Source: a virus
Direction: 5' to 3' (one strand)
Virus record (IMG/VR): IMGVR_UViG_3300010398_000002
Location: 1 to 64,000 of that record
Length of the DNA stretch: 64,000 nt
In this document: positions 26,506-64,000 of the stretch, one piece after another
How positions within the stretch are numbered: the first letter of the stretch is position 1
Layout of the letters: each line of letters opens with the position of its first letter
The notes under the pieces: model-generated
Databases searched by the model: none
The model's input: only the letters and a program-made list of their open reading frames with translations
What the model was told of the DNA's origin: nothing
Translations under genes and position numbers: made by a program

Positions 26506-29130
26506 TCACGACACCACCTGCTGTGGTACGGACAGCAACAGGTCCAGCGCCTGGGCCTCGTAGAGCGCGCCGAGCACACCGCACAGGTCCTTCGGGTCAC
26601 GGGTCTTGAGCCACTCCTGACCACCGGTCACCGGCCTGCTGCCACACTTCTCGATCAGGTCGTCAAGGTCGGTGTACGGACCATGCTCCACTATGTGTTG
26701 AGCAGCCTTGATGCCAACGCCCTTAACTGAGATGAGTCCACGGCGTACGAACCTGCCGCTGGGATCGAGGGCATAGCTGACATCACTGGAGTTAACGGCA
26801 GCGCTCTTGACGCGCACGTCATGGCTGCGCGCAGCGTGTAGATACTCTGGTTCTTTATCCTTTGTTCCCGCAAACGACGCCAACAGTGCAGCAAAATATG
26901 GCACAGGATGATGGGTCTTTAGATAAGCTGTCTGGTAGGCAGTCAGTCCGTAGCGGGTGGCGTGGGCTCGGTTGAATCCGTAGTCGGCGAAGCCCTCAAT
27001 GGCTCGCCATAGCATCGCTCCTTCGGCGTCGGGTATCCCGGCCCCGGCGCACAGTCGGTATACGTCGGCGCCGTAGGAAGCGATGACTTCCGCCGCAGCA
27101 GCCACGTTGTTGTTGCTGGCCTTGACCGCCTTGAGCAGCTCCGTCAGGTCCTCCGGGCTCATCCCGAGCGCGCGCAGAATCTCGATGACCTGCTCCTGGA
27201 ACACCACGAGCCCGTGCGTGTCCTTCAATGCTTTGCCCAGTATCGGGTGCATATCTGGAACTTTGTGTAGCTTGAAGCGACGCGCCAGATACTCCTGTGT
27301 GGCTCCAGAACCCATCACCGCAGGTCTGTATAGGGCCATCACCGCAATGATGTCGGCGACGTTGCGCACCCGCAGTTCCTGGGCGCCGCGCCGATTGGTG
27401 AAGCCGTCGAACTGGAACACGCCCACTGTGTCGCCACGCTGCACCGTGGACAGGGTCGCCGAGTCGTTCAGCGGTATCCAGTCCAGGCCCTCCACCGGAT
27501 CGCGGCCCAGGTTCTCCAGCGTCTGCCGGATCGTGGACAGCGCCCGCAGCCCGAGCAGGTCCAGCTTGACCAGGCCGAGGCTCTCGATGTCGTCCATCGT
27601 GTACTGGCTTGCAGTGGTCTTGCTGCTGGCCACGTACATGGTCGGCACGAGCTGGTCGAACTCGGCGTCGCTCGTCGTCACGACCAGCCCGGCCGCATGT
27701 ACTCCATACCCAGAAGTGGCACCCGACCTCGACAACATCGAGAGCATGATCTTGTCGTCCTCGGGCACCGCGTCCCAGGCGAGCGTCTCGCCCTCGGCCA
27801 GCGACTTGCGTGCCTTGGCCATGTACTTGACCACCAGGCTGCCCTTGCCGTCCTCGCCAGGCGTCATGCCCAGCTCCAGGTAGGTGCCGATCTGGTGCAC
27901 CGAGAAGCGCTGCCTGATCCAGGCGATGACATCAGCGCGCCGGGTGTACTCCACGTCCAGGTCGATGTCCGGTGGCTTGGTGCGGTCGGTGGTGATGAAC
28001 CGCTCGTAGCGCAGCTTCCACCAGACCGGGTCCACGCTGGTGATGCCCAGCCGGTAGCAGACCAGCGAGCCGGACGCCGAGCCGCGCGCCTGGAAGATGA
28101 TTCCTTCCCTGCGCATGTAATCGGTGACCTCGGCCACCAGCAGCAGATACCCGGCCATGTCGGTGGCCTCGATGACCGCCAGCTCCTCTGCTAACAATCC
28201 GCTCTTGTCCGATCCGACACGAGCGCGCAGCACTGCCATCGGATCGGGCGTGATCTGTGGGATGCGATAGCGGTAGCGATCGAGCTGCGGGATGCTCAGG
28301 TGCCATCTGGCCGCAAGGTCGGCCATTCCTGCTAGCCCAGCCGCCCAGTGCGCAGGAGTGTGCCGAGCCTTCACCTCGGCGGTTGCGGCCAGGTGGTAGC
28401 CATGCCCTCGAAAGACACCGTCGTCGTCGCCTGAGCCGTACGAAACAAGGCGTTTAAGCGCGTCGTGTGCTGCCCGTTGGACAGGTCTTGCATAGTGCAC
28501 GTCGCCAGTAACCAGACAGGGGAGCCCAAGGCGATCCGCCAGTTCCGCCAGCGCCCCACATAGCTCGGCATCGGTGATGCCGTCGTCCCACGTGATGTCA
28601 TGGTTCATCAGCTCCACATAGCAGGCGTCGAACCAGAGCGCGTACATGGCCAGCGTGTTCATCGCGGCCTCGGGCCCGTAGTTCAACAGGTCCTGGATCG
28701 GTAGCCCGGACCAGCATCCGGACAGGCACGCCAGCCCGGTCAGCCACCCCTCCTCGGCACACTCGGCCAGGTCGGCGAGATCGAGCAGCGGCTTGTGGAA
28801 GAACTGCGCGTGTGCCCGGCTGGAGAGCCGGACCAGGTTGCGATACCCCTCGGTGCTGAACGCCAGCACTCCGAGGTGGTGCCGCTTTGCTTTCTTGTCG
28901 CGCCGGTCTCGGACGAGATAGAACTCCTCACCGGGAAATGGAGCGATTCCAGATTTCATGCACTCGCGGTAGAGCTGCACGCTGCCGGACATATTGCCGT
29001 GGTCGGTGAGGGCCAGGCAGGGCTGGTCGTTCGCCCCTGCCTGGCCCACCAACGTCGGCACAGAGCTGATCGCATCCCCGGACGAGTAGACCGAGTGGAC
29101 GTGAAGGTGGCTCCATGCCGAATCGGTCAT
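26506..29130 (-). CDS. dnaE: DNA polymerase III alpha subunit (DnaE-like, PHP domain)
   Basis: 874 aa. N-terminal HLHVHSVYSSGD (PHP). Overall DnaE-like sequence by eye. Confidence 0.85.
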   Translation of the reverse strand: MTDSAWSHLHVHSVYSSGDAISSVPTLVGQAGANDQPCLALTDHGNMSGSVQLYRECMKSGIAPFPGEEFYLVRDRRDKKAKRHHLGVLAFSTEGYRNLVRLSSRAHAQFFHKPLLDLADLAECAEEGWLTGLACLSGCWSGLPIQDLLNYGPEAAMNTLAMYALWFDACYVELMNHDITWDDGITDAELCGALAELADRLGLPCLVTGDVHYARPVQRAAHDALKRLVSYGSGDDDGVFRGHGYHLAATAEVKARHTPAHWAAGLAGMADLAARWHLSIPQLDRYRYRIPQITPDPMAVLRARVGSDKSGLLAEELAVIEATDMAGYLLLVAEVTDYMRREGIIFQARGSASGSLVCYRLGITSVDPVWWKLRYERFITTDRTKPPDIDLDVEYTRRADVIAWIRQRFSVHQIGTYLELGMTPGEDGKGSLVVKYMAKARKSLAEGETLAWDAVPEDDKIMLSMLSRSGATSGYGVHAAGLVVTTSDAEFDQLVPTMYVASSKTTASQYTMDDIESLGLVKLDLLGLRALSTIRQTLENLGRDPVEGLDWIPLNDSATLSTVQRGDTVGVFQFDGFTNRRGAQELRVRNVADIIAVMALYRPAVMGSGATQEYLARRFKLHKVPDMHPILGKALKDTHGLVVFQEQVIEILRALGMSPEDLTELLKAVKASNNNVAAAAEVIASYGADVYRLCAGAGIPDAEGAMLWRAIEGFADYGFNRAHATRYGLTAYQTAYLKTHHPVPYFAALLASFAGTKDKEPEYLHAARSHDVRVKSAAVNSSDVSYALDPSGRFVRRGLISVKGVGIKAAQHIVEHGPYTDLDDLIEKCGSRPVTGGQEWLKTRDPKDLCGVLGALYEAQALDLLLSVPQQVVS

Positions 29131-36922: not shown

Positions 36923-36953
36923 AGCCCTCGCCGCCCGGCGGGGGCTTTCTTCA
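36923..36953 (+). terminator. intrinsic terminator
   Basis: CCCTCGCCG / CGGCGGGGG stem then CTTTCTTCAT. Confidence 0.6.
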
Positions 36954-36957
36954 TGCC

Positions 36958-37066
36958 CGAACGACGGACCTGGTCATGCCCAACCAAGCCGTCACGACGA
37001 TCCGGGCCAAGCCAACGCCTTGCCGTCACGACAGATCAGATCGGTCCCGGCCAAGCCGTCACGACT
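36958..37066 (+). repeat. mini-array: 3 exact CCGTCACGAC cores (36989, 37023, 37056; 33-34 nt apart) plus one degenerate copy (GAACGACGGACC at ~36958)
   Basis: Same motif, orientation and period as the 50-52 kb and 54-55 kb arrays. Sits 45-150 nt upstream of promoter 37110-37138. Confidence 0.8.
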
Positions 37067-37109
37067 CACCAGACCCGACCAGACCCGGCCGGGTTTTCTT
37101 AATGCCCAC

Positions 37110-37138: not shown

Positions 37139-37285
37139 GCCACCGCTGACAACGGGGGGAAAGGGGGAATCGGGGGAACCGGCGTCTCTCCTGCTATGGA
37201 GGCGTCGGGCAAACCAATCGGTAGTTCCGCGCAGCATGCTCTTTTGCAGCTGTGCGGACGATGTCATGACTCTAGGAGGAGTCTC

Positions 37286-47025: not shown

Positions 47026-48501
47026 TTGCCTACCACAGCAGTTGACAAGACCGAACAGGAAGTCATCGAGGAGCAGATTCTGGCCGAGCTGGGCAAGCTC
47101 GCCGGAGTGCGCTCCGGGCAGGACCGCATCCAGAAGGAGGGGACCAAGTACGTTCTGCCCCAGAGCACCTCGCTGCGCGACGACATCACGTTCCTGGTGG
47201 ACTACGCCGACGCCCTGGAGACCGAGACGGCGTTCACCCGGGTGTTCAAGTACCGCCCGTGGGACGGTGCCGCATGCTTCCAGGCGGCGCTGATGCGCGT
47301 CTGGGGCACCGCAGGCGTCGGCCAGGCCACCTACAGCTTCTTCGGAAAGAACCCGCCGGAGATGCGCACCATCGAGGTCGGGCCCCACCAGACCATGCAG
47401 ATTCCCTGGGGCCAGATTCAGTTCGCTCCGCTGTCGGCCACCATCACGTTGAGCGGTGTCGAGAGGCGGGACTTCGGGACGCTGTTCCAGATGATCGTGG
47501 TGTGCCCGAAGAAATACGCCAACCAGGTGGAGGGCCTGTTCACGATCGTCGAGCAGGAGTTGAAGGAGCACTCGATCTACAAGGGCCAGGCGTTCAACGG
47601 CGCCGAGGAACCAGGCTTCCTGGACCCCTACTCGGTGGACCGCAACAAGGTGATCTACACCGAGGAGATCGGTGACCAGCTCGACGCCAACATCTGGTCG
47701 ATGCTGCGGCACACCAAGGTGATCAAGCAGCTGGGGCTGCCGCTCAAGCGCTCGGTGCTGCTGGGTGGCCCGTACGGCACCGGCAAGAGCCTGACCGCCA
47801 TGGTCACCGCGCAGATCGCCATCGAGAACGGCTGGACCTTCGTGCAGTGCCGACCGGACGACGACCTGGCCCGGACGTTGCAGACAGCCAGGCTGTACGA
47901 ACCGGCGGTGGTGTTCTACGAGGACATCGACAACCTGTCCCGTTCCGGTGATCCAGAGACGATCAGCAAGCTGCTCGACATGTTCGACGGCATCTCCGCC
48001 AAGGGCACCCAGCTGGCCATGGTGCTCACCACCAACAAGGTGGACAGGATTCACAAGGGGATGCTGCGGCCGGGCCGTCTCGACGCGCTGATCATGCTGG
48101 ACGCGCTGGACGAGGAGAGCTTCATCCGGCTGGTCAAGGCAGCGGCGCCAGACGGCATGCTCGACCCGGAGATGGACTTCCAGGCGGTTGCCGCCTCGAT
48201 GAAGGGCTTCCTGCCCGCGTTCGTCAAGGAGGCCATCGACCGGGCCGTGCGTTACGCGGTTGCCCGGGTGGAGGGCAAGCCAGCGGTATTCACCACCCAC
48301 GACTTCGTGCGCGCCGCCGAGGGCCTGCGCCCGCAGCTGGTCACCATGAACGAGGCCAAGGACACGGTGGCGCCGGACGAGGCCAGCGTCGTCCTAGGGA
48401 AGATCGTCAAGGCAGCGGTGACCACTGGCGAAGTCGCGATCCTCGACCCTGACGACGGAAGCAAGCAGTACGTGCTCGGAACCACCAACTCCAGCACGTA
48501 A
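47026..48501 (+). CDS. AAA+ ATPase (classic FtsH/Cdc48-type module) with ~230-aa unknown N-terminal domain
   Basis: TTG start after TAAGGAGAAC. Walker A GGPYGTGKS, Walker B VVFYEDID, second region of homology TTNKVDRIHKGMLRPGRLD. Confidence 0.85.
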   Translation: MPTTAVDKTEQEVIEEQILAELGKLAGVRSGQDRIQKEGTKYVLPQSTSLRDDITFLVDYADALETETAFTRVFKYRPWDGAACFQAALMRVWGTAGVGQATYSFFGKNPPEMRTIEVGPHQTMQIPWGQIQFAPLSATITLSGVERRDFGTLFQMIVVCPKKYANQVEGLFTIVEQELKEHSIYKGQAFNGAEEPGFLDPYSVDRNKVIYTEEIGDQLDANIWSMLRHTKVIKQLGLPLKRSVLLGGPYGTGKSLTAMVTAQIAIENGWTFVQCRPDDDLARTLQTARLYEPAVVFYEDIDNLSRSGDPETISKLLDMFDGISAKGTQLAMVLTTNKVDRIHKGMLRPGRLDALIMLDALDEESFIRLVKAAAPDGMLDPEMDFQAVAASMKGFLPAFVKEAIDRAVRYAVARVEGKPAVFTTHDFVRAAEGLRPQLVTMNEAKDTVAPDEASVVLGKIVKAAVTTGEVAILDPDDGSKQYVLGTTNSST

Positions 48502-50147: not shown

Positions 50148-52005
50148 CTCACCAAGCCAGCCCGGCCCTGCCCTGTCCGTCACGACGGACCGGACCAGAC
50201 CTCATCTTCCCGTCACGACAACCCTTGCCATCCCAAGCCGGTCCGTCACGACACACCACGACGCGGCCCGTCGAACCTGGCCACACCGTTCCGACAAGCC
50301 ACTACGTGTCATGCCGCGCCATCACGTCAGGACAGACCAGGTCTCACCACGCCCGTGACGACAGACCAGGACTCTCCTGTCCACGCGACAGACTTAGCCA
50401 CACCGTCCCATCCCGTCAAGACGGGCCACTCCACGCCCCATCGTTCGACGAACCTCTTCACTCCAGGCCGTTCCGACAGGCCGGTCCTCGTCTCACCCAC
50501 CCGCGCCTGGCCGCACCGTCATGACTCTCCGTTCCTGGCCCTCCCGATCCGTAACGACACTCCATACCCTCCCATGCCGTCACGACGTCCCTACCCGCCT
50601 CGCCCCTGGCCGTTCCGTCAACGACGGACCCCTCCGGCCCGAGCCAGCCCACAATGACGTGCCGCACCGAATCCGACCGATCCGATCCGGACGTACCCCG
50701 CCTTATCACCCCTATCCGTCAGGACAATCCTGGCCATCCCATTCCGCTCCCGACGATCCCAACCGAGCCGCATCAGACCGAGCCGTCACGACTGTCCGCT
50801 CCCCTCCGGCCCACACCTCACCGTGCGACGATCCCGTCCCTACTCCATACAGTCCGCACCGGTCCGTCATGACACACCTCACTGAGCCAGTCCCTCCCAC
50901 GCCGTCACGACACACCAGGTCTCGCTAAGGCACGCCGAGCCTTACCTCGCGACATTCCACTACACGCCCACCCGTCACGACAGGCCAGTACACGTCTCGC
51001 CGCCACGTCACGACCAGCCCGTCCAGCACACGCCCTGCCTTGCCGTCACGACGGTTCTAGCCGTGCCATACCGAGCCGACCCAGCACGACACTCCGCTCC
51101 GGCGCTGTCCGGCCCACAACCCGCCACACCTGGCCGAATGACTATCCACACCAGTCCCAGTCCGACAAGCCACGACCACGTCACGGCGCGCCCTTGCCAT
51201 GCCGTCAGGACTCACCAGCCCATGACCCTCCAACCCTCGCCCAGCCCATCCGTCCCTCGCGACGCATCACTCCCATCCGGCCCGCGCCATATGACAGACC
51301 GCGTCGCAACACTCCTTGCCACTCCGACAGACCGCGTCCCTCCAGGCCGTCCCGTACCGTCCGACAGACCAAGCCAAGACGTGCCGTCCCGTCACGACAG
51401 ACCGATCCGGCCCGGACCGTCCGACAGGCCACATCTCGCCCCAGTCACCCCTCCCCGTACGACAGACCTCATCAGTTCAGACCTCACCGTCATTGACTCT
51501 CCGCACCTGGTCGCGTCACCCCAGACCGTCGAGACTGTCCATCCCAGCCCAAACCGTCGCGCGACAAACCTCTCCAAACCGAACCGTCACGACAGACCGA
51601 GCCGACCCGTTCCGAATGACAGTCCACTGCACATCTGTCCTCCCCGTTCGACGATCCTGGCCAGTCTCGGCCCGCGCCATGCCGTCACGACTATCCGCTC
51701 CACAACCTGCCAGTCCGAGCCGTCACGACATGCCGTACCAGCCCGAACCGTCACGACGAACCGATCTCAACCCCGCCGCACCGCGCCCGTCCATCCGACT
51801 ATCCGTCCCTGACCCTGCCGAGCCATCACGACATGCCGAGCCCAGACATGCCCTTCCTGGCCGTCCCGCATTGTCACACCACGCCCGCACCTGGCCGTCA
51901 CGACTATCCGTACCGACCCTTATCCGACCCGACCTGGCCGTCACGACCATCCGCTCCATACCGTCCCGACATTGACACACCACGTCACTACCCATCCGCA
52001 CCACC
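50148..52005 (+). repeat. repeat array 1: degenerate ~33-nt direct repeats, core CCGTCACGAC(N3)CCG, C-rich strand
   Basis: 16 exact CGTCACGAC copies (my line-by-line count), all plus strand, plus many 1-2-mismatch copies. First three cores at 50177/50210/50243. Core occurs in all three frames. Confidence 0.9.
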
Positions 52006-52106
52006 CCCGCCCGGACGTTTCGGGCCCACCCATGCCGCACCAACTTCCCTACCCTGCCGGGTAGGGACCACGGGCCACCAAAACCAACGGCCCATGACCA
52101 GAAAGG

Positions 52107-52820
52107 GTGATCACTTTGTGGATCATCTACGAACTCAAACTGCACGTTGACCGCCTGGTGGGAGGCATCCCCAAGCACCCGACGATCATCAAGCGCTGGC
52201 AGGAGGCACACATGCCTCCAAACCCGGAGCGTGTCGCCGAGCGGACCGGCCAGCCGGTGCCCACGGTCGAGCAAGCGACCGAGAAGACCATGGACCTGCT
52301 CGGCAGCCAGATGATGGACCCCGAAGAGGTCGTGCAGGGCATCTGGACCGGCTTCGTCACCATGCCCAACGGCACCACGCTGGCGCTGGAGAACCGCAAC
52401 ATCAAGGCGATGCTCAAGGAATCCGCCAACATCGTGCGGGTGCTGCCCGACATGCCCAAGAACACCAAGGGCGGCGCGATCCCGTTGAAGAACAAGCTGG
52501 CCGAGCGGGTGTTCGTCAACCCGCCACTCATCGCGATCCTCGACGAGGACGGCAAGCAGGTCACCGAACCGGAGTCGTCACCCGAGCGGCCCATCCACGT
52601 GATGACGATGCAGGGACCGCGCACCGCGCTCAAGCGGGTGGATCAGGTCAGGGACGTCACCCTGGTGTGCCAGCTCAAGGTGCTCGACGACGGGGTGATC
52701 ACCGAGGACATGCTGCGGATCATCCTCGACCACGCCAAGGAGAACGGCCTGGGCACCGATCGCTCTACCGGCGCCGGGACCTTCGAGTACGAGTTGAAGC
52801 GGATGGACCCGCCGCAATGA
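52107..52820 (+). CDS. hypothetical 237-aa protein with Cas6/RAMP-like glycine-rich loop (candidate RNA-binding/processing protein)
   Basis: GTG 52107 or TTG 52116 (GAAAGGG SD). N-terminal beta-strand then VGGIP. NRNIKAMLKES. C-terminal GLGTDRSTGAG (aa 214-224) fits GhGxxxxxGhG. No search done. Confidence 0.7.
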   Translation: MITLWIIYELKLHVDRLVGGIPKHPTIIKRWQEAHMPPNPERVAERTGQPVPTVEQATEKTMDLLGSQMMDPEEVVQGIWTGFVTMPNGTTLALENRNIKAMLKESANIVRVLPDMPKNTKGGAIPLKNKLAERVFVNPPLIAILDEDGKQVTEPESSPERPIHVMTMQGPRTALKRVDQVRDVTLVCQLKVLDDGVITEDMLRIILDHAKENGLGTDRSTGAGTFEYELKRMDPPQ

Positions 52821-53212
52821 ATGGGGAGAAAACCACGCTGGAATACCTGTCGGACAAGTACCGGCTGCAGATAGTGGCGATGCTGTCTGCCGGGCCCACC
52901 ACGGTGGCAGACATCGTGGACCGGATCGGCGTCATCACCCACAGCACCACGCAAAAGCTCGTGGACATGATGGTCGAGGAGGGCCGTGCGCGTCTGATCG
53001 AGTACGGCAAGGCAACCGGCTCGGACTACTACGAGCTGGTGACCATGCGGACCCGGGACGAGATCGTCGGTATGGCCACGGTCGCAGAGGGCGAGTCTCA
53101 GAAGACCGAGAACGCTGACTATTGGCACGGAGTCGAGGAAGCGCTGCACTGGGTGCTGGGCGAGCAGCCAAGCGCCTTCCAGATACGAATGATGCTCAGC
53201 GCAGGACCATGA
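52817..53212 (+). CDS. ArsR/MarR-like winged-helix DNA-binding protein (131 aa)
   Basis: ATGA coupling. LSDKYRLQIVAMLSAGPTTVADIVDRIGVITHSTTQKLVDMMVEEGRARLIEYGKATGSDYYEL matches the wHTH layout. Confidence 0.7.
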   Translation: MNGEKTTLEYLSDKYRLQIVAMLSAGPTTVADIVDRIGVITHSTTQKLVDMMVEEGRARLIEYGKATGSDYYELVTMRTRDEIVGMATVAEGESQKTENADYWHGVEEALHWVLGEQPSAFQIRMMLSAGP

Positions 53213-54091: not shown

Positions 54092-55125
54092 GCGCGCCAG
54101 GCCGAACCGACTCTTCACTCCACCGCTCGCCGCCCCGACACGACTCTCCACGTCAGTTCTCAGCGCGCCGTCACGACACTCCTCGCTACCCCTAACCTCG
54201 TCCCGCCGCACCGTCACGACACACCTCGTCACAGGCAGCCCTGATCAGGCCAAACCGTCAACGACCGGCCACGTCGTACCACTCCTGCCCCGACGATCCG
54301 CACCCCAAACCAGTCAGACCTCGCCGCCATGACGATCCGCTCCGACCCCGAACAATCCGAGCCGTCAACGACATACCTAACCGATCCGTGCCGTCCCGTC
54401 CGACAACCCAGTCCACCCCGTAACGACATTCCGGTCCGGCCCGAGCCGCCCCTTGCCGACAGACCGCATCACGACTGACCTCGACACCGTCACGACAGTC
54501 CGCACCAGCCCGAGTCAGTGCCGCCCAATCCTTGCCGTCACGACCATCCTGGCCGAGCCCATCCGCTCCGCAACGACTGACCTCGCCACCTCCACTCCGC
54601 CTCTCGCCGCCCCGTAACGACGGTCCTCGCCACTCTTCGGCCCGCCCTTGCCACTCCGTCACGACGGTCCGCGCCACGTCTCTTGCGAACCCAACCGAAC
54701 CGTCACGACTGTCCAATCCACGCCGCCCCGTGCGACGTACCTGGCCTAGCCCTACCGTTTCGACGTTCCTGGCCCATCCAGCCCGATCCATCACGACGTG
54801 CCGATTCACGCCCGGGCCAACCGGCCCAAGCCGTCACGACGACCCCTGCCTACTCGTCTCCCGCCATGCCGTCCCGTCACGACCTGCCACATCACTTCGA
54901 GCCAGACCGTCATGACATACCACTTCTTACCGGCCCAGACCGGTCCGTCACGACCTACCTCGCCTGGTCACCCCTATCCGAGCCGTTGCGACTCTCTACT
55001 CCAGTCCCGTCCTGACCTAACCATCACGACGTACCTGGCCTAGCCCACCCCGCCCGGTCCGTCACGACAATCCGTGCCTCACCAGACCTACACGTAACGA
55101 CATACCTAATCGGCCCTTCCCGAGC
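54040..55125 (+). repeat. repeat array 2: same CCGTCACGAC(N3)CC unit and orientation
   Basis: 10 exact CGTCACGAC copies (my count) plus degenerate copies (CCGTCAACGAC, CCGTAACGAC, CCATCACGAC, CCGTCATGAC...). Confidence 0.9.
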
Positions 55126-55151
55126 CGGTCCGTCCCCCGAAAGGAGGCCCC

Positions 55152-55505
55152 ATGTCCAGCCGAGATTTCCACCGCGTGCCCTATGGACACATCAGCAACC
55201 GGGGCTTCTGGCACCCCGGTAGATCGGAACGCTGCAGGTCGTGCAGCGAGCCCCGCAAGATCGTCATTCGCCCCGGCAGCAGACGCTGGACCCACTCTCA
55301 ATGGATAGCGCTGGATCGCTGGCTGCTGCGCAACTTCATCGACCTGCGCCAGGTAAGACAGGTGGAGCTGATCATCCAGCAACCGCCTGTACTGGAAGCC
55401 ACCATGCTCGATGGGACAATAATTCGGAAGCCAGTTCGGGTGGCGTACCCGGGCTGGCTCTGGCCCACCATCCCCCCGACCGAGAGGACCAGGAGTGCCG
55501 AATGA
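55152..55505 (+). CDS. hypothetical protein (117 aa)
   Basis: SD GAAAGGAGG. First gene after array 2. Confidence 0.6.
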   Translation: MSSRDFHRVPYGHISNRGFWHPGRSERCRSCSEPRKIVIRPGSRRWTHSQWIALDRWLLRNFIDLRQVRQVELIIQQPPVLEATMLDGTIIRKPVRVAYPGWLWPTIPPTERTRSAE

Positions 55506-58476: not shown

Positions 58477-58848
58477 TCAGACCGGCAACCCGATCGAGAT
58501 CGCGTAGGTGTGCGGGTCGAGCGTGATCGCACCGCCCTGTGCCACGTCCTTGCCGGGCGCAGGCAGCGCCGCGAACGTGAGCAGGTGACCGTTGTAGAGC
58601 GCATCCCATACCCCGACATGGGTGACCCGAGCGGCGGGCAGGCCCGGCCAGGTCAGCTTGGTGGCCAACCAGACGGTGCGCGCGTCCACGGTGGTGAAGG
58701 CGGCCGACTGGCGTGCGTACGACCCGCCGATCAGCTCCGACTGGACCGACCCGTCATGACCGGGGTCAGCGGTGTGCAGGCTCCACCAGCACGGGGTGAA
58801 CGCCTTCAACCACAGCCCGGCTACATAGTCGGTGACTTCTCCGTTCAT
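58477..58848 (-). CDS. small tail-associated protein, 'SLHTADPG...GGSYARQ' family (paralogue 2)
   Basis: ATG 58848 in ATGA overlap with the upstream stop. Track start 58875 rejected. Confidence 0.6.
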   Translation of the reverse strand: MNGEVTDYVAGLWLKAFTPCWWSLHTADPGHDGSVQSELIGGSYARQSAAFTTVDARTVWLATKLTWPGLPAARVTHVGVWDALYNGHLLTFAALPAPGKDVAQGGAITLDPHTYAISIGLPV

Positions 58849-61040
58849 GACGTGCCCGGCTCCTGTCTGAAACACCGTCCCAGGAAGTAGACCGGCTGCC
58901 CGGCCGGGATTCCCTCGGCATAGATCATCACGAACAACAGCCCGGCGTTGGCGTTCTGCGGGAAGTTCTTGCTGGGCCGTTGCTGGAAGTTGGGGTCGCT
59001 GGTGGTGTCGAAGGTCCAGGACGCCTCGTCCTCCAGCAGTCCGGTGGGCCGCCCGCCCTGGCTCTGCAACCCGGGGTAGTAGCCAGCACCCTGGTAGTAG
59101 TTGCCCCAGCCGACCACGAAACTCTGCTGTTTGCCGGTCAGATCACCCGGCGCCTTGGGCGCACCGTTGGCGTCCACGCTCTCGAACGCGCCGGGGAAGA
59201 ACGGATAGTGCTGCCCGACATGGCCCGCCAAGCTGGCCAGATACCCCGGCAGCCCCGAGCCCGGTATCGAGGGCATCGAGGTCGGGTTGATACCGGACGC
59301 GGTGTAGAAGCTCAGGTGGAACCGGATCGGCATCACGTTGCCGTTGATGTCGTAGGCGGCCACCTGGATCAGTCGTATGGTGCCCACCTGCGCGAACAGG
59401 CACGGGATCGCGTAGCCATCCCACGTTTTAGACCAGTTTTTAGTGTAGTTTCCGCTCGCCGCCGGAATACGGATGTAGAAGCGCGGGTGCGCGCGCGGCG
59501 GATACTTCCTGGTCAGCGCGGTCCACGGGAAGACATCGCTGCCGCTGGCATATTTCAGAAATAGGTCTTTGCCGTTGGGGTCCTTGCCGCCCGGGCTGGA
59601 CGGGATGACGCCGGACCCGGCGGCATAGCTCCACGGCTTGCGCAGGTCCTGGATCACCGGGGAGAAGCTGCCGACCTTGAGGCTGCGCAGCGTGGCGAGC
59701 GTGTCCCGGCTGCGCGCCTGCACCTGCTGGATGGTGAGCAGGTCGCGGAACTTGGAGTCCACCGTCAGCTCCACGCTGGAGTCGTTGACGTTCACACTCA
59801 CCTGCGCCACGTGCAACAGCAGCGGCGTCAGCGAGCCCTGGAAGCCGTGCACCAGCAGCGTCATCTGCGGCTTGATCAAGAACCGGGACAGTGTCTTCCC
59901 GGCTTGTTCGGGATCGACCGTGAGCGTCACCGTGCCGGTATAGCCGGGGTGCATCGAGCGGGACAGCTGGGCCTGCGCGGTGATCGCCGCAGCAGCGGGC
60001 GACAGTCCCTGGTCGAACTGGGTGTAGGTCTCCTGGCGCATCACCCTGGAGTCGAACCAGCGGTTGGTCTGCGGGGTGGGCGGGTGCACCTGGCGCTGCG
60101 CGGCGAAGGGCGCGTAGCTGGTGCGCGACCCGTCACCGGAGATCACCGCGTTGGAGAAGCTCACCCCGGCGGTGTCGCTGCCCTGCCCGTAGTAGACGTT
60201 GGCAACCTGGCTCCAGTCCTCGGACAGGCTCAGCACCACGCCCGGCTGACCGACGGTGACTTCTAGCGAGTCTGGCTGCGGGGAGCGCAGGTAGGGCCGC
60301 AACCGCAGCTCCGGCTTGCGCCCCGGGTTGAGCATCACCGTCCACTGCGAGCCGTCCGGCGTATACATCAAAGCCAACAGGGCCTGGATTTGGCCCGTGA
60401 GCATCTTGTTCCAACTTCCGGTGGAGCGTGTGGTGAGACCGGTCCACTTATCACCCGGTTTGACGCCCCAGGGCTTGAGGTAGCTCGGGTCGGTGGCCAC
60501 GCTCTTGGGCACCACCGTGCTCCAGCCGTCCGGGAAAGTGATCTTCAATGCGGCGGTGCGCAGGCTGGCGTGCGTGGCCGGATTGAGCCCGTCCCGGATC
60601 AGCAGCTCGTACGGGATCGGAGTCGGCGGAAACTGCGGATAGGCCAGGAAGTTGTCCGCCTGGAACAGCGCGCCCTTGCACTGCAGCGCGACGGACGTGT
60701 CATCGGGACCCGCCTCGAAGCTGGGATTGACGACGTAGCCCTCCCAGAGCTTGGTCAGCGCGCCGCTGGTCGCGTCCTGCCAGTAGATATCCAGGTTGGC
60801 CCCGGCGACCAGCCAGGGCAGCTCTGGGCCACCAAGACGCTCCATCACAGAGACCTGCGGGAAGCTCACCTGGGCCACGCCAGGACCGAACGGATCACTG
60901 AGCGAATACGACTGAATCTGAGTGGGGATGTTCCGGAAAAAGCTCACGTCCACGGCAGCGCCCCCGGGCGGTGTCATCTTGATCCGGTGATAACCGGACA
61001 ACCGCCGGTCCACCACATCCTGGGTCCACGGCTGGGTCAT
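58845..61040 (-). CDS. minor tail protein (731 aa), tail-tip/hub-like
   Basis: Large ORF two genes after the distal-tail-like protein that follows the tape measure. Position typical of Tal/tip proteins. Confidence 0.7.
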   Translation of the reverse strand: MTQPWTQDVVDRRLSGYHRIKMTPPGGAAVDVSFFRNIPTQIQSYSLSDPFGPGVAQVSFPQVSVMERLGGPELPWLVAGANLDIYWQDATSGALTKLWEGYVVNPSFEAGPDDTSVALQCKGALFQADNFLAYPQFPPTPIPYELLIRDGLNPATHASLRTAALKITFPDGWSTVVPKSVATDPSYLKPWGVKPGDKWTGLTTRSTGSWNKMLTGQIQALLALMYTPDGSQWTVMLNPGRKPELRLRPYLRSPQPDSLEVTVGQPGVVLSLSEDWSQVANVYYGQGSDTAGVSFSNAVISGDGSRTSYAPFAAQRQVHPPTPQTNRWFDSRVMRQETYTQFDQGLSPAAAAITAQAQLSRSMHPGYTGTVTLTVDPEQAGKTLSRFLIKPQMTLLVHGFQGSLTPLLLHVAQVSVNVNDSSVELTVDSKFRDLLTIQQVQARSRDTLATLRSLKVGSFSPVIQDLRKPWSYAAGSGVIPSSPGGKDPNGKDLFLKYASGSDVFPWTALTRKYPPRAHPRFYIRIPAASGNYTKNWSKTWDGYAIPCLFAQVGTIRLIQVAAYDINGNVMPIRFHLSFYTASGINPTSMPSIPGSGLPGYLASLAGHVGQHYPFFPGAFESVDANGAPKAPGDLTGKQQSFVVGWGNYYQGAGYYPGLQSQGGRPTGLLEDEASWTFDTTSDPNFQQRPSKNFPQNANAGLLFVMIYAEGIPAGQPVYFLGRCFRQEPGTS

Positions 61041-61042
61041 GG

Positions 61043-62095
61043 TCAGCCCGTGATCGCGTAGGCAGGCAGCAGTGCCGAAGTGACCTGGGCAGCCTCCGTG
61101 GAGCTGAGCATGTGGTCGAAGTAGTTGACCTCGAACAGGTGCATCCCGGCACAGGTGGCCGGATCGAGCTGGCCGTGCTCACGCCCGAGCACGAAGTTCA
61201 TCGACAGCGGCAGCCTGGACTGGGTCGGGAAGACCAGGTGCATCTGCGAGTTCTTCGGGCCCCACCAGTCCAGCATCGGATGCACCCCGTAACGCACCCG
61301 CACCAGCAGCGGGCGCCCGGTGCCGGAAGACATGGTCTGGTCGATCTGAAACTGCAGGCTGTCCTGGACGGCATTCACCGAGTTCGGGTCGCGCTGCAAC
61401 GCCAGCCGTCGCCCGGGCAGCGAGTCGGGCGGTGTCCAGGGCAGATCGTGGAAGCCGATCACCTCGTCGCCGATGTCCAGGAACGAGTGGTACAGCTGCC
61501 CTCCGACAAGCGGGTCGGTGGACACCACGAACCAGAACTCGATGTCTTCGGCGCCACTGAGGTCATTGATGGACAAGGAGGTGTTCATGCAATTCCCGAG
61601 CCCCTGGTCGAAGACCAACGCCGGGCGCAGCAGCACCTCGTCCGCAGCGGTTTGCTTGATCACCGTGTAGGTGTAGTCGTCCTCGAACTGCGGGTTCCAC
61701 AGGTCGTACGAGGTCCACGCCACGCTGCCGTCGATGTCCAGCCAGTCCATCTCGGTGCCGTCCGGATTGAGGCTGATGTACTCGTCACCGACCAGCCAGC
61801 GCACCGTGGCGCCGTTATCCACGTCACCCGGCAACGGCCTGGTGATGCTCGGGATGGCAGCCCCGGACGGGTCGAGCGTCACGAAGACGGGCACCGCGCA
61901 ATCCAGCACTGGCGGTGCCTTCGGGATGCCGGACAGCACCCGGTAGTCGCTCATCACCGCGCGGAAGTAGCGCAGCGGGACGATCTGTGGCGGCGGGTCC
62001 GACCACGGAATCTCCTGCTCGACGACCAATGACATGCCGATCTGGATGGTGGCGGTGCCACCGGTCTCCTCGAAGCCGCCGTCTGGAGTGGTCAT
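61043..62095 (-). CDS. minor tail protein (350 aa)
   Basis: ATG 62095 (ATGA overlap). Track start 62206 rejected. Confidence 0.65.
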   Translation of the reverse strand: MTTPDGGFEETGGTATIQIGMSLVVEQEIPWSDPPPQIVPLRYFRAVMSDYRVLSGIPKAPPVLDCAVPVFVTLDPSGAAIPSITRPLPGDVDNGATVRWLVGDEYISLNPDGTEMDWLDIDGSVAWTSYDLWNPQFEDDYTYTVIKQTAADEVLLRPALVFDQGLGNCMNTSLSINDLSGAEDIEFWFVVSTDPLVGGQLYHSFLDIGDEVIGFHDLPWTPPDSLPGRRLALQRDPNSVNAVQDSLQFQIDQTMSSGTGRPLLVRVRYGVHPMLDWWGPKNSQMHLVFPTQSRLPLSMNFVLGREHGQLDPATCAGMHLFEVNYFDHMLSSTEAAQVTSALLPAYAITG

Positions 62096-62544
62096 GTCGG
62101 CTGGAAACTCGGGGCCAATGAACTGACCGTGATCATCAGCTGCTGCGGGTGAATCACCACCTGGGCCAACGGCGCCGGAGAGATCGGCGGGTTCAACGTG
62201 CCGCACAACAGCAAGCGCCCCGAGCCGAGATCGGCCACGTCGAGCACCGCATAGGCGTTCAGCACACCCCAGCCACCGGCCTCCGGCACGGTCGGGAAGA
62301 CGATGTCGTTGGCGTTGAACGCCTCGTAGTAGCCGGACGGGTCCCAGTCAGCGTTGTCGTTCGGCACGATCGCGCGCTGGTAACCGGTGGTGGCATCCGG
62401 CTCCAGGATGGTGGACCCGTCGTCGCCGATCTCCGGCAGCGCGGTGCAGAGCCCCAGGTAGTACGTGGCCAGCGGCGCCTCGGTGCGCCCGAACAGCACG
62501 GCGAGGATGTGCGCCGAGCCCGCATTGGTGACGAAGCTGGTCAT
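62092..62544 (-). CDS. small tail-associated protein (150 aa), distant paralogue 3
   Basis: ATG 62544 (ATGA overlap). YLGLCTALPEIGDDG...TGYQR aligns loosely with the SLHTxDPG family. Confidence 0.55.
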   Translation of the reverse strand: MTSFVTNAGSAHILAVLFGRTEAPLATYYLGLCTALPEIGDDGSTILEPDATTGYQRAIVPNDNADWDPSGYYEAFNANDIVFPTVPEAGGWGVLNAYAVLDVADLGSGRLLLCGTLNPPISPAPLAQVVIHPQQLMITVSSLAPSFQPT

Positions 62545-63035
62545 GACAGCGGCCCCATACCGACGACCGGGCTGCGCGGAATCTGCGCCTTGAACGACAG
62601 CTGCCTGGCGAACAGCAGCGTGTTGGAGTAGTCGATCGAGTAGTCGGCCATCTCGCAGTGCCAGGTATATGCCGCTTGGTCCGCTGACCACACTAAGTCA
62701 TATTCAGGCTGACTGAATGTATCTATCAATTGTGCAAGGTTGTCCTGCAGCTCGCCCTGGTTGATCCCGAGCACCCAGACGTTGACCTGTTCCTGGACGG
62801 TGTCCGGCACCGCATGCGTGGTGAACTTCCCGGCCACGTACGGGCTGGTGATCTGCTGGCGACGCCAGGTCTGCTGCGCTGCCTGGAAGCTGTCCCCGGC
62901 CACGATGTAGTGCTCGTGATCGTCCAGGTCCAACCACCCGGCCGGTCCGGTGATCCGGCAGGTGAACACGGGCTCGGTCCAGGAAGCGGGGACACGCGCC
63001 TCACCACCAGTGAGGATGACGCTGAACTCGCTCAC
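62541..63035 (-). CDS. distal tail protein-like (164 aa)
   Basis: GTG 63035 in GTGA overlap with the tape-measure stop. Position immediately after TMP. Confidence 0.55.
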   Translation of the reverse strand: MSEFSVILTGGEARVPASWTEPVFTCRITGPAGWLDLDDHEHYIVAGDSFQAAQQTWRRQQITSPYVAGKFTTHAVPDTVQEQVNVWVLGINQGELQDNLAQLIDTFSQPEYDLVWSADQAAYTWHCEMADYSIDYSNTLLFARQLSFKAQIPRSPVVGMGPLS

Positions 63036-64000
63036 GGCAACACCCCACTGGTCATATCCGGACGGGTGAGCGCCGCCAGGCGGGCCCGGTTCTTCAATGC
63101 CACCGCCATAGCATTCGGGTCCTGAGCCTGGACCGTCACAGCGCCGTTGAAGTTGGTAGACGAGTCCACGTGAGTGTTGATCACGGTGGCTGCCACGGCG
63201 CTCGCCTTGGACACGCCGGTAAGCGCCGCAAACGCTTCGCTGTTGGCTCGCTTCATGAGCGACAACAAGAACTCGGCACCGCGCTCGTTGAGCGGGAAGA
63301 CCGCCTCCGGACCACGCTCGGCAATGCCGATGATCTGCTGCTTGTTGAACAGCGCACCAGCGGCGTACCACGGCGGGCTGTGGCTGAACTCGAAGTTCAC
63401 CGCGCCGATCGGGTCGCCGTAGCGGGACTTGATGTAGTTGAGACCCCACTTCATCTGGGTGATCGGGTTGGTGCGCCAGTCCGCGCCGAAGTCGGCCATC
63501 TTGTTGCCAGGCAAGGACTGCGGGATGCCGTACGCAGAGGTCGCCGGGTCACCACCGACAGGGTTGATGGCGTTCTGGTTCCAGCCCGACTCGTTGTTCC
63601 AGAGCCGCACCAGAGCCGCGAACTCGTTGTCGCCCCAGCCATAGGCGGCCTTGATGTATGCCTTGGCCCAGTTCTGGTTCTTCTGCGGGGTGCCGACCGG
63701 GAGCGCAGTCGGGCTGATGATGTGCGGTGCTCCCCTGCGCTCCGCGCCGGTTACGCCGGTTACCGGATGGAACCCACCACCGGCACCGTAGTAGCCATAC
63801 TGGCCCTGCGGGTTGATGCCCATCGTGCCCGGCGTCGAGATCGGATTGCTGGCGCTCCCGGCTGGTGCGGCTCCGGGCAATCCGCCGCCGCCGCGCATGG
63901 CTTGTTGCTGTGCCCTGATGAGCGCCTGCTCCTGACTGATGATCCCGGCAAAGAACTTCTTCATGTCCCCGGAGGACTTGTCCCACGCACGCTGCAATAC
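63032..64000 (-). CDS. tape measure protein, C-terminal part with lysozyme-like/transglycosylase motif (5' end outside window)
   Basis: ...AYGWGDNEFAALVRLWNNESGWNQNAINPVGGDPATSAYGIPQSLPGNKM... resembles SLT-type domains embedded in actinophage TMPs. ORF open to the window edge. Confidence 0.7.
   Translation of the reverse strand, partial: VLQRAWDKSSGDMKKFFAGIISQEQALIRAQQQAMRGGGGLPGAAPAGSASNPISTPGTMGINPQGQYGYYGAGGGFHPVTGVTGAERRGAPHIISPTALPVGTPQKNQNWAKAYIKAAYGWGDNEFAALVRLWNNESGWNQNAINPVGGDPATSAYGIPQSLPGNKMADFGADWRTNPITQMKWGLNYIKSRYGDPIGAVNFEFSHSPPWYAAGALFNKQQIIGIAERGPEAVFPLNERGAEFLLSLMKRANSEAFAALTGVSKASAVAATVINTHVDSSTNFNGAVTVQAQDPNAMAVALKNRARLAALTRPDMTSGVLP

What the first reader, a model, noticed from the sequence alone, without database searches (positions are those of the whole stretch)
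50148..52005. ~1.9-kb strand-specific array of degenerate ~33-nt direct repeats (core CCGTCACGAC-N3-CCG)
No SD-preceded ORF lies between the stop of the 49-aa ORF (50147) and ~52005. Instead the 9-mer CGTCACGAC occurs 16 times exactly (my line-by-line count), always on the plus strand. Many 1-2-mismatch versions accompany it (CCGTTCCGAC, CCGTGACGAC, CCGTCAAGAC, CCGTAACGAC, CCGTCATGAC, CCGTCAGGAC). The first three cores start at 50177, 50210 and 50243, exactly 33 nt apart. Later spacings drift between roughly 27 and 48 nt, so the core falls in all three reading frames. That argues for a DNA- or RNA-level element rather than a Pro/Ser/Arg-rich protein. Good copies extend to CCGTCACGAC-NNN-CCG-NN-CC, and the core contains the interrupted palindrome CGT-N-ACG. 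About 55 units would fit if the period holds (estimated from length, not counted). Known repeat systems I can compare differ: cluster-A mycobacteriophage stoperators are dispersed 13-mers, and P1/plasmid iterons number fewer than 20. Candidate roles are a protein-loading (iteron/centromere-like) array, a regulator-titrating array, or a processed repeat RNA.
Basis: partly seen in the sequence, partly recalled or inferred. Interest (0 to 1): 0.9.

Follow-up and report, generated by a model that had tools for sequence, protein, structure and literature searches.

The report
Phage VIPR guide-RNA repeat arrays
The 1.9-kb repeat tract is real and non-coding, and it is most likely the guide-RNA array of a VIPR system, a phage-borne CRISPR-like system first described in 2026 preprints, here in an unusually large form whose transcribed strand is still unknown.

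Summary
CGTCACGAC occurs 31 times in the window against 1.6 expected, and all array copies lie on the + strand.

- The tract is a 5-nt lattice, (CC-NNN)n, with no 3-nt coding periodicity.
- A 'GAC'-containing mark interrupts it every 5-8 pentamers, so unit lengths are quantised at 28/33/38/43/48 nt.
- Two more arrays exist, at 54092-55135 and 36955-37083.

The 234-aa gene just downstream (52116-52820) folds as a single-RRM RAMP/Cas7-like protein with a GxGxxxxxGxG loop. By profile comparison it is homologous to the Vipr protein of phage SUSP1. In 43 of 50 related metagenomic loci with enough flanking DNA, a homolog sits within 400 nt of a strand-skewed period-5 array. The same is true in the cultured Microcystis phage Mae-JY09.

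This matches VIPR systems (bioRxiv 10.64898/2026.04.26.720920 and .720927). There, Vipr protomers coat pentanucleotide-repeat vrRNAs and read DNA through the variable bases.

What differs or stays open:
- About 95 units lie head to tail, with no promoter or structured tail for each unit.
- The conserved dinucleotide is CC on the vipr-sense strand (GG on the opposite strand).
- The transcribed strand cannot be settled in silico.

Verdict: a new member of a recently described kind.

The parts
50148..52005 (+). About 334 pentamers of CC-NNN and about 59 'GAC' marks, with the unit (CCnnn)k-CCGTC-AC[GAC]nnn. It starts right after the stop codon of the 49-aa ORF.
   Evidence: motif enrichment, lag-5 identity 0.444 against 0.309, no lag-3 signal, GC skew -0.4.
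52006..52115 (+). Spacer between A2 and the vipr gene. It holds two stable hairpins (GCCCGGACGUUUCGGGC and CCCUACCCUGCCGGGUAGGG) and the ribosome-binding region of vipr.
   Evidence: MFE -38.1 kcal/mol, z = -2.15 on the + strand. Sequence read.
52116..52820 (+). vipr-like gene, 234 aa (TTG start; an alternative GTG at 52107 gives 237 aa). Single-RRM RAMP/Cas7-like protein with a helical bundle, a beta-hairpin thumb and the C-terminal loop GLGTDRSTGAG.
   Evidence: AlphaFold2 pLDDT 93.9. Foldseek against PDB: type VII Cas7, Csm3 and Cas7-11, E down to 1.2e-8, probability 1.0. BFVD: viral 'RAMP superfamily protein', E 7.6e-14. hhalign to the SUSP1 Vipr family: probability 85%, E 5.8e-6. Invariant G211, G213, R216, G221.
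52817..53212 (+). 131-aa ORF overlapping the vipr stop codon. Candidate accessory (vap-like) DNA-binding protein with weak winged-helix/HTH signals.
   Evidence: Pfam hits below threshold: HTH_20, HTH_5, MarR_2, DUF7342. An orphan: only itself and one 86%-identical relative were found. The single-sequence AlphaFold2 model was unreliable.
54092..55135 (+). Array A3. About 189 pentamers and about 32 marks, with the same core and polarity. It starts right after a stop codon and ends about 15 nt before the RBS of the next + strand gene (ATG at 55152).
   Evidence: lag-5 identity 0.434 against 0.309, GC skew about -0.4.
36955..37083 (+). Mini-array A1. Three exact cores and one degenerate core (CCGAACGAC), each followed by 4-5 CC-NNN pentamers.
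36923..36952 (+). Terminator-like hairpin plus UUUCUUC just upstream of A1.
   Evidence: 10-bp stem; -20.8 kcal/mol, z = -3.2.
37071..37100 (+). Terminator-like hairpin plus UUUUCUU at the 3' end of A1. The stem is built from the last pentamers of the array. A + strand promoter-like TTAACA-17-TAGGCT follows.
   Evidence: -12.1 kcal/mol, z = -2.35. Sequence read. The promoter match is my own reading of the sequence, not a tool hit.

Best explanation
The three arrays and the adjacent 234-aa gene form a VIPR (Viral Interference Programmable Repeat) system carried by a novel actinophage-like genome.

**Shown here.**
- The arrays are non-coding pentanucleotide lattices.
- The neighbouring protein is a single-RRM RAMP homologous to the SUSP1 Vipr protein.
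- Protein and array travel together across a very large, diverse family.

**Inferred from the published SUSP1 work.**
- The arrays are transcribed and cut into short vrRNAs.
- One Vipr protomer binds each pentamer. It sequesters the conserved dinucleotide and presents the variable bases.
- The filament then recognises double-stranded DNA of competing phages or other mobile elements through non-contiguous pairing, and represses it.

**Specific to this instance.**
- Each unit is 5-8 pentamers, delimited by a conserved mark: CC-GTCAC-GAC here, with CGAC as the family-wide core.
- I read that mark as a processing or nucleation site. This is inference.
- About 95 units lie head to tail without individual promoters, so they must come from long precursors.

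**Which strand is the RNA?** This is unresolved. I lean about 60-65% to the vipr-sense strand, which would make these CC-NNN vrRNAs. The alternative is the opposite strand, GG-NNN, as in published systems.
For: **Array anatomy.**
- Period 5 and no period 3.
- A CC register that runs into the core and is then shifted by an inserted mark.
- About 550 pentamers and about 95 marks in all.

**Protein.**
- AlphaFold2 pLDDT 93.9.
- Foldseek top hits are Cas7 of type VII and type III systems and Cas7-11. A viral RAMP protein is the top BFVD hit.
- A GxGxxxxxGxG loop with invariant glycines and arginine.
- hhalign to the SUSP1 Vipr family gives probability 85%, E 5.8e-6, covering helix 1 and the G-loop.

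**Linkage of protein and array.**
- 62 of 87 related loci, and 43 of 50 with at least 600 nt on both sides, have a skewed period-5 array within 400 nt of the homolog.
- Such regions cover 27.9% of bases within 1 kb of the gene. They cover 0.67% more than 3 kb away and 0.48% in 37 unrelated viral loci.
- The same detector recovers both experimentally defined SUSP1 vrRNA regions.
- The cultured Microcystis phage Mae-JY09 has the same gene-plus-array layout.

**Literature.** VIPR is defined as a Vipr RAMP plus pentanucleotide-repeat vrRNAs, with one protomer per repeat.

**Evidence for the sense strand.**
- Arrays abut + strand genes with no room for an antisense promoter.
- A1 ends in a + strand terminator-like hairpin.
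- Array polarity relative to vipr is fixed, whether the array lies upstream or downstream.
- The 'CGA' of the mark sits at the same offset, in sense orientation, in C-type arrays and in the four G/T-rich arrays. GAC outnumbers GTC on the sense strand in both types.
- The G-loop motif differs with array type: DRS against ERG.
- The sense RNA is less structured than shuffles, with mean z about +0.9.
Against: - No expression, processing or binding data exist for this clade.
- Published Vipr proteins read GG(Y), and the preprint lists only G-containing consensus variants. Here GG lies on the strand opposite vipr.
- There is no SUSP1-like structured 3' tail of about 40 nt.
- Units of 5-8 pentamers would specify only 10-24 nt of target.
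- No conserved accessory (vap) gene was found in relatives.
- A search for targets with 11 read/skip rules in 1.19 Mb of local sequence gave nothing above shuffled guides. That search was underpowered.
- The profile match to the SUSP1 Vipr family is moderate and covers about half of the protein.
- The antisense RNA folds better than shuffles: z = -4 for the first 500 nt, and mean about -1.3 across the family. This could mean that strand is the functional one.
Confidence: 0.85

Rival explanations
1. It is the same VIPR system, but the functional vrRNAs come from the minus strand. They would read (GG-NNN)n followed by a 3' GUCGUGAC mark, antisense to vipr and its neighbours, exactly as in the published G-based code.
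For: - Published Vipr recognises GG in syn conformation through an acidic G-loop residue and a thumb arginine. Equivalents, D215/R216 and K173/R174, are conserved here.
- The preprint lists an NNNGG variant.
- Read on the minus strand, each tract precedes its mark, like 'repeat tract then 3' tail'. A1 then parses as four complete tract-plus-mark units.
- The minus-strand RNA folds better than shuffles, and GUCGUGAC is a G.U wobble palindrome.
Against: - A3 and the first L040 array leave no intergenic room for an antisense promoter.
- A1 carries terminator-like hairpins on the + strand only.
- The four G/T-rich arrays keep the mark in the same sense orientation. So one clade lacks a conserved G on the functional strand whichever strand is chosen.
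- SUSP1 vrRNAs are co-directional with vipr.
Confidence: 0.35
2. It is a DNA-level protein-loading array, such as iterons, a centromere or parS-like site, or a regulator-titrating array. It would be bound as double-stranded DNA by the wHTH or another protein.
For: - Many direct repeats of a short core containing the interrupted palindrome CGT-N-ACG.
- A putative wHTH gene lies next door.
Against: - Spacings step by 5 nt (28/33/38/43/48), so sites fall on alternating faces of the helix.
- The core differs between relatives, while the pentamer lattice and strand skew are what is conserved.
- No Rep, ParA or ParB gene is nearby.
- The wHTH is an orphan that is not conserved with the arrays.
- The conserved partner is an RNA-binding RAMP.
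Confidence: 0.04
3. It is a long untranslated C-rich, G-poor leader whose main role is to load Rho, or to set transcriptional polarity or timing. The repeats would be incidental.
For: The sense RNA is 46% C and 20% G, and it is less structured than shuffles. By general knowledge of Rho, that is the composition of rut sites.
Against: - Composition alone does not explain a strict 5-nt lattice, the conserved marks or the quantised unit lengths.
- It does not explain the linkage to a RAMP protein.
- Four relatives carry G/T-rich arrays in the same position.
Confidence: 0.04
4. It is a low-complexity protein-coding gene or genes. The source assembly called a 224-aa gene inside it.
For: ORFs of 126-249 aa lie on the + strand, and the assembly's gene caller called one.
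Against: - Lag-3 identity is below baseline while flanking genes show period 3.
- Cores fall in all three frames.
- The ORFs are broken and overlap in different frames.
- Relatives conserve the lattice, not any ORF.
Confidence: 0.01

Closest known systems
VIPR systems (Viral Interference Programmable Repeat). The type II models are Escherichia phage SUSP1 and a Pseudomonas fulva prophage. bioRxiv 10.64898/2026.04.26.720920 and 10.64898/2026.04.26.720927.
   Same: - Phage-borne.
- A small single-RRM RAMP protein with G-loop, thumb and helical bundle.
- Long intergenic tracts of pentanucleotide repeats flank the gene: a conserved dinucleotide or trinucleotide alternating with hypervariable bases.
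- No cas genes and no CRISPR array.
- A small putative DNA-binding gene lies next to the RAMP gene.
- The preprint also mentions contiguous ('staggered') arrays and NNNGG-type repeats.
   Different: - About 95 units in three arrays (about 3 kb), against four vrRNAs of about 100 nt in SUSP1.
- Units of 5-8 pentamers, against 9-16.
- No promoter and no structured tail of about 40 nt for each unit, only an 8-nt mark.
- All three non-conserved positions are variable, so there is no Y3 equivalent.
- The conserved dinucleotide is CC on the vipr-sense strand. In SUSP1, GG is on the sense strand.
- The G-loop reads GLGTDRS, against GVGDWRP.
- The protein is 234 aa, against 195.
- I could not check whether this clade is one of the preprint's seven types, because the figures and data tables are not held.
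Class 1 CRISPR-Cas backbone proteins: Cas7 of types VII, III and I, Csm3, and the Cas7-11 domains.
   Same: They are the best structural matches for the 234-aa protein. They share the RRM core, glycine-rich loop and thumb, and they polymerise along a guide RNA at a fixed nucleotide step.
   Different: - The step is 6 nt in CRISPR complexes and 5 nt here.
- No CRISPR repeat-spacer array was seen. None of the 16 window proteins scanned against Pfam or PHROGs matched a Cas family.
- Sequence similarity is only marginal: E about 0.02-0.05.
Type III toxin-antitoxin loci (ToxIN and relatives).
   Same: A tandem array of roughly 30-40-nt RNA units lies next to a small RNA-binding protein gene on mobile elements. 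This comparison rests on my own knowledge of the family.
   Different: - ToxI repeats are few and near-identical, and ToxN cuts them.
- Here the units are degenerate and built on a 5-nt lattice.
- The protein is a RAMP, not a ToxN/AbiQ fold.
Plasmid or phage iterons and parS centromere arrays, and cluster-A mycobacteriophage stoperators.
   Same: Many copies of a short, asymmetric motif in a phage genome.
   Different: - Those act as double-stranded DNA sites for Rep, ParB or repressor proteins.
- They are dispersed or helically phased, and number fewer than about 30.
- They lack a 5-nt lattice and strand skew.

Membership tests
VIPR system | Vipr protein: a small stand-alone RAMP with a single RRM core, a glycine-rich loop and a thumb. 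| tested here: met
   AlphaFold2 model with pLDDT 93.9, showing a beta-alpha-beta-beta-alpha-beta core, an inserted three-helix bundle, a long beta-hairpin and the C-terminal loop GLGTDRSTGAG. Foldseek matches Cas7/Csm3 chains with probability 1.0.
VIPR system | Homology to an experimentally characterised Vipr (SUSP1, KT454805 28474-29061). | tested here: met
   Profile-profile hhalign of 56 against 38 sequences: probability 85.4%, E 5.8e-6, 125 columns including RRM helix 1 and the G-loop. A single sequence against the profile was not significant. The support is moderate, not strong.
VIPR system | Tandem pentanucleotide repeats in the intergenic DNA flanking vipr. | tested here: met
   Lag-5 identity is 0.44 against 0.31 in A2 and A3. 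There are about 550 pentamers. The same holds in 43 of 50 related loci and in the SUSP1 positive control.
VIPR system | The repeat consensus is GGY/NN, or a listed variant (NNNGG, YNNNG, NNNNG), on the transcribed strand. | tested here: inconclusive
   The consensus is CC-NNN on the vipr-sense strand, which is NNN-GG on the opposite strand. The transcribed strand is unknown. Packing, terminators and mark polarity favour the sense strand. The published chemistry favours the G strand.
VIPR system | An invariant, structured 3' tail capping each vrRNA (type II architecture). | tested here: not met
   Only an 8-nt mark (GTCACGAC) separates the tracts. No conserved structured segment of about 40 nt is present, and there is no Rfam ribozyme or other family. 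The preprint describes other architectures without such tails, including staggered arrays, so this does not exclude membership.
VIPR system | An accessory vap gene with a DNA-interaction domain next to vipr. | tested here: inconclusive
   A 131-aa ORF overlaps the vipr stop codon and has sub-threshold HTH/winged-helix hits. It is an orphan. Neighbours of homologs show no shared family. The structure model was unreliable.
VIPR system | Non-CRISPR, virus-borne genomic context. | tested here: met
   The 80-kb metagenomic contig carries a phage-type DnaE, an AAA-ATPase of phrog_10440 and Gp80-domain proteins. None of the 16 window proteins scanned matched a Cas family, and no CRISPR-like repeat-spacer array was seen.
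VIPR system | vrRNAs are expressed, bound by Vipr, and guide binding to dsDNA with a 1-nt skip. | not testable with these tools
   A computational target search with 11 read/skip rules on 1.19 Mb gave no excess over shuffled guides. Guides are short and the database is small, so this says nothing either way.
CRISPR-Cas | A repeat-spacer array (repeats of about 28-37 nt) plus cas operon genes. | tested here: not met
   The units are a 5-nt lattice with an 8-nt mark. The only RAMP gene found among the proteins scanned is this one.
Iteron or centromere (parS) arrays | Double-stranded DNA repeats in helical phase, next to the gene of their Rep or ParB binding protein. | tested here: not met
   Spacings step by 5 nt. 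No Rep or Par homolog appeared among the flanking proteins scanned. The conserved partner is a RAMP.

The most novel reading that the evidence does not exclude
The functional RNA is the vipr-sense, C-rich strand. This large Vipr clade (about 2,300 clusters at 50% identity) would then read a CC-NNN lattice instead of the published GG(Y)-NN one. Its G-loop (DRS) has co-evolved with the conserved dinucleotide. Sister loci with an ERG loop carry UG-type lattices. Guides are released from giant precursors of about 60 units at a conserved CGAC mark. That would be a second 'alphabet' and a new array architecture for the VIPR code, not stated in the text of the preprints.
Probability: 0.4. Interest if true: 0.8.

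Novelty: new member of a known kind. Interest (0 to 1): 0.6.

Why it matters
VIPR is a newly described RNA-guided DNA-recognition system. Its authors propose that it predates CRISPR.

This window shows the system in an actinophage-like genome at a scale not seen in the model phages: about 3 kb and about 95 putative guides.

It also defines a very large environmental clade, with 2,298 clusters at 50% identity. In that clade the conserved repeat base, the G-loop motif and a punctuation mark all differ from the characterised type.

If the sense strand is the guide, the protein-RNA recognition code is evolvable (GG, UG, CC). That bears on how the system works and on engineering orthogonal VIPR effectors.

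Microcystis phage Mae-JY09 offers a cultured system in which the strand and the processing question can be settled directly.

Tried and rejected
- **Tandem Repeats Finder on the interval.** It found only trivial short arrays.
- **Megablast of the array against 50,697 phage records.** No match.
- **Exact scan of IMG/VR for two cores 18-38 nt apart.** It gave 37 loci. None has the period-5 signature, so they are chance or coding repeats.
- **Rfam.** Nothing at gathering thresholds on the whole window and nothing at E up to 5 on the arrays, so no ribozyme or known RNA family. No tRNAs were found.
- **The search for related loci with the single protein in IMG/VR.** No relatives. Exact-sequence lookup of the 237-aa version found nothing, because the recorded gene starts at the TTG.
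- **Sequence-only family searches of the protein.** Pfam, PHROGs and the PDB gave nothing significant. Only the structure and the profile-profile comparison were informative.
- **Target prediction.** Eleven read/skip rules against 1.19 Mb (the masked window plus all fetched loci) gave no excess over shuffled guides.
- **Terminator census at array ends in 59 arrays.** Too few hits to decide the strand.
- **Generic promoter scan around A2 and A3.** No hits.
- **Search for a conserved vap gene.** tblastn of 14 window proteins against 87 loci, plus Pfam on 10 neighbouring ORFs, found none.
- **Single-sequence structure of the 131-aa ORF.** Unreliable, not used.
- **A C-avoidance asymmetry around CC that might have mirrored the Y3 position.** It is weak in the window and absent across the family. 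I dropped it as an argument.
- **Readings considered and rejected.** Chi-like sites, primase sites, TRAP-like attenuation and type III toxin-antitoxin. Each lost out once the RAMP fold and the VIPR literature were found.
Full report
**1. The observation**

CGTCACGAC occurs 31 times in the window, against 1.6 expected from dinucleotide-preserving shuffles. Sixteen exact copies lie between 50178 and 51947, all on the + strand. The first three cores are 33 nt apart. The tract is 46% C and 20% G, with GC skew about -0.4.

Three things were missed.
- The strongest signal is a period of 5 nt. Lag-5 identity is 0.444 against a composition baseline of 0.309, and lag 10 is 0.397. Lag 3 is below baseline at 0.257. 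Two coding controls from the same window show the usual period 3 and no period 5.
- Core-to-core spacings do not drift. They are 28, 33, 38, 43 or 48 nt, that is 5k+3.
- The same core, in the same orientation, forms a second large array at about 54092-55135 and a mini-array at 36955-37083.

**2. Anatomy**

I aligned 44 cores. A CC dinucleotide recurs every 5 nt upstream of the core, and that register runs straight into the core's own CC. Then GTCACGAC intervenes, and the register resumes 13 nt later. The lattice is therefore (CC-NNN)k, punctuated by a mark.

A Viterbi parse gave these counts:

| Array | Pentamers | 'GAC' marks |
|---|---|---|
| A3 | 189 | 32 |
| A1 | 27 | 5 |

Marks are usually 5-8 pentamers apart. 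All three positions between CC pairs are variable.

ORFs of 126-249 aa exist inside the tract, and the source assembly called a 224-aa gene there. The missing period 3 and the frame-hopping cores argue that they are not genes. No Rfam family or tRNA matches.

**3. The neighbour**

The window is part of an 80-kb metagenomic contig, ENA ERZ27264337 k141_2309669. It comes from a novel phage. Its DnaE is 35% identical to that of Gordonia phage GMA6. Its AAA-ATPase is about 39% identical to those of Gordonia phages and Mycobacteroides prophages.

It does have 123 metagenomic homologs. With an alignment of 56 of them, AlphaFold2 gives a confident model with pLDDT 93.9.
- Foldseek against the PDB returns Cas7 of type VII complexes, Csm3 of type III-A and the Cas7-11 domains, with probability 1.0 and E down to 1.2e-8.
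- The best viral match is annotated 'Cas system-associated RAMP superfamily protein'.
- The C-terminal GLGTDRSTGAG fits the RAMP glycine-rich loop GxGxxxxxGxG. The pattern is from my own knowledge, and the companion preprint describes the loop for Vipr. Its glycines and R216 are invariant.

**4. Linkage**

I fetched 85 further loci that encode homologs, from metagenomes and MAGs. They come from soil, groundwater and marine samples. The MAGs include Acidimicrobiia, Actinomycetes, Dormibacteria and Nanopelagicales.
- Sixty-two of 87 loci have a strand-skewed period-5 region within 400 nt of the homolog. Among loci with at least 600 nt on both sides, the figure is 43 of 50. This holds even at 26-35% protein identity.
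- Such regions cover 27.9% of bases within 1 kb of the gene. They cover 0.67% more than 3 kb away and 0.48% in 37 unrelated viral loci.
- The cores differ between relatives. Examples are CCGTCA-N-CGAC in L039 and L040, GCGAC in L116 and CC-GAC-A in L052, L083 and L124. The lattice, the 5k+2, 5k+3 or 5k+4 unit lengths and a mark ending in CGAC recur.
- A profile search finds 2,298 clusters of this protein family at 50% identity.
- The cultured Microcystis phage Mae-JY09 has the same gene-plus-array layout.

**5. What it is**

A literature search found two 2026 preprints describing VIPR systems. These systems have the following properties.
- A phage-encoded, single-RRM RAMP protein (Vipr).
- vrRNAs made of pentanucleotide tandem repeats (GGY/NN).
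- One Vipr protomer per repeat, forming a helical filament that hides the GGY and presents the NN bases.
- Pairing with double-stranded DNA that skips one target base per repeat, which represses competing phages.

I located the SUSP1 locus. My period-5 detector recovers both of its vrRNA regions. A profile of the SUSP1 Vipr family aligns with the profile of the window's family at probability 85%, E 5.8e-6, across RRM helix 1 and the G-loop.

I put that at 0.85. The 131-aa ORF overlapping the vipr stop codon has weak HTH signals and could be the accessory gene. It is an orphan, however, and no accessory gene is conserved across the clade.

**6. How it differs, and what is unresolved**

Four things set this instance apart.
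- The arrays are far larger than in SUSP1.
- They are continuous, with no promoter or tail for each unit.
- Their units are short.
- They carry CC on the vipr-sense strand, whereas SUSP1 carries GG on the sense strand.

So either the vrRNAs are antisense (GG-NNN), or this clade uses CC-NNN vrRNAs.

Evidence for the sense strand:
- A3 and other arrays abut sense genes with no promoter room.
- A1 is followed by a + strand terminator-like hairpin.
- Array polarity relative to vipr is constant, whether the array is upstream or downstream.
- Four relatives carry G/T-rich (xTGxx) arrays in the same tight sense arrangement. Their mark aligns with the C-type mark in sense orientation, with 'CGA' at the same offset, and GAC outnumbers GTC in both types. 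One clade therefore lacks a conserved G on the functional strand whichever strand is functional.
- The G-loop differs between the two array types, DRS against ERG.
- The sense RNA is less structured than shuffles.

Evidence for the antisense strand:
- The published recognition chemistry for G.
- The NNNGG variant listed in the preprint.
- Better-than-random folding of the G-rich strand.
- The tract-then-mark order, which matches 'tract then 3' tail'.

I lean 60-65% to the sense strand, but this needs RNA data. A target search was uninformative.

**7. Verdict**

The iteron, centromere and titration ideas are not supported.

The element is a new member of a kind described only months earlier. 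It would be a new variant if the CC-type sense reading holds. I could not check whether the preprint's seven types already include this clade, because its figures and data tables are not held.

Noticed in passing
window 36955-37100: An isolated mini-array of four units sits between two + strand terminator-like hairpins. It lies just upstream of a promoter-like TTAACA-17-TAGGCT and an 837-aa ORF with SpaA_4/Big_3_5 domains (ATG at 37196; an RBS-preceded ATG at 37287). It looks like a separate small transcription unit, and it is the best local clue to the transcribed strand.
   Followed up: partly
window 51138-51812 (L038 9023-9697): The source assembly's gene caller placed a 224-aa gene inside the array. 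It is very likely spurious, since the tract is stop-poor and C-rich and has no 3-nt periodicity. The same appears to happen in L039 (a 262-aa call at 11593-12381 overlaps arrays).
   Followed up: partly
L063 3276-4160; L093 10050-10550; L066 5921-6125; L105 1-292: Four relatives carry G/T-rich period-5 arrays (xTGxx lattice, with a GACGAG or GGCGAG mark) on the vipr-sense strand. Their Vipr G-loop reads GxGxERGxGxGRY, against GxGxDRSxGxG in the C-type clade. The loop motif and the conserved repeat dinucleotide appear to vary together. With only four G-type loci, I could not separate this from shared ancestry.
   Followed up: partly
L127 (Microcystis phage Mae-JY09, PP395641.1) 3962-5100: A cultured cyanophage carries a vipr-like CDS (WWT39994.1, annotated hypothetical). 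It is followed directly by a 390-nt array that is 51% C, with lag-5 identity 0.45 against 0.34 and a 33-nt top lag. The array sits at the right end of the record, before a strong hairpin.
   Followed up: partly
window 50148-50650, minus strand: On the G-rich strand the mark GUCGUGAC is self-complementary through two G.U pairs, and the first 500 nt fold with z = -4. The 9-nt mark of L040 (GUCGnUGAC) keeps this wobble palindrome, but more distant relatives do not. Its significance is unknown.
   Followed up: partly
L116 12000-12350: The C-rich array ends abruptly in a strongly AT-rich stretch of about 350 nt, unlike the rest of the GC-rich contig. It might be a promoter region, an insertion boundary or an assembly join.
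   Followed up: no
L110 3022-4027; L111 1603-2602: Two loci match the Vipr query over about 1,000 nt instead of about 640. This suggests an insertion or a fusion in those homologs.
   Followed up: no
window 26506-29130 (-), 47026-48501 (+), 58845-64000 (-): The genome encodes a DnaE-type polymerase (PHP, Pol III alpha and finger domains) and an AAA-ATPase of phrog_10440 shared with Gordonia phages and Mycobacteroides prophages. Gp80-domain proteins flank a 731-aa ORF. Gene blocks switch strand near 36.7 kb and 58.8 kb. Most early-region proteins have no family.
   Followed up: partly
window 52006-52106: Two stable hairpins lie between the end of array A2 and the vipr start codon. L040 has a comparable hairpin between the vipr stop codon and its array (10657-10700). 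They might be processing or attenuation structures.
   Followed up: partly
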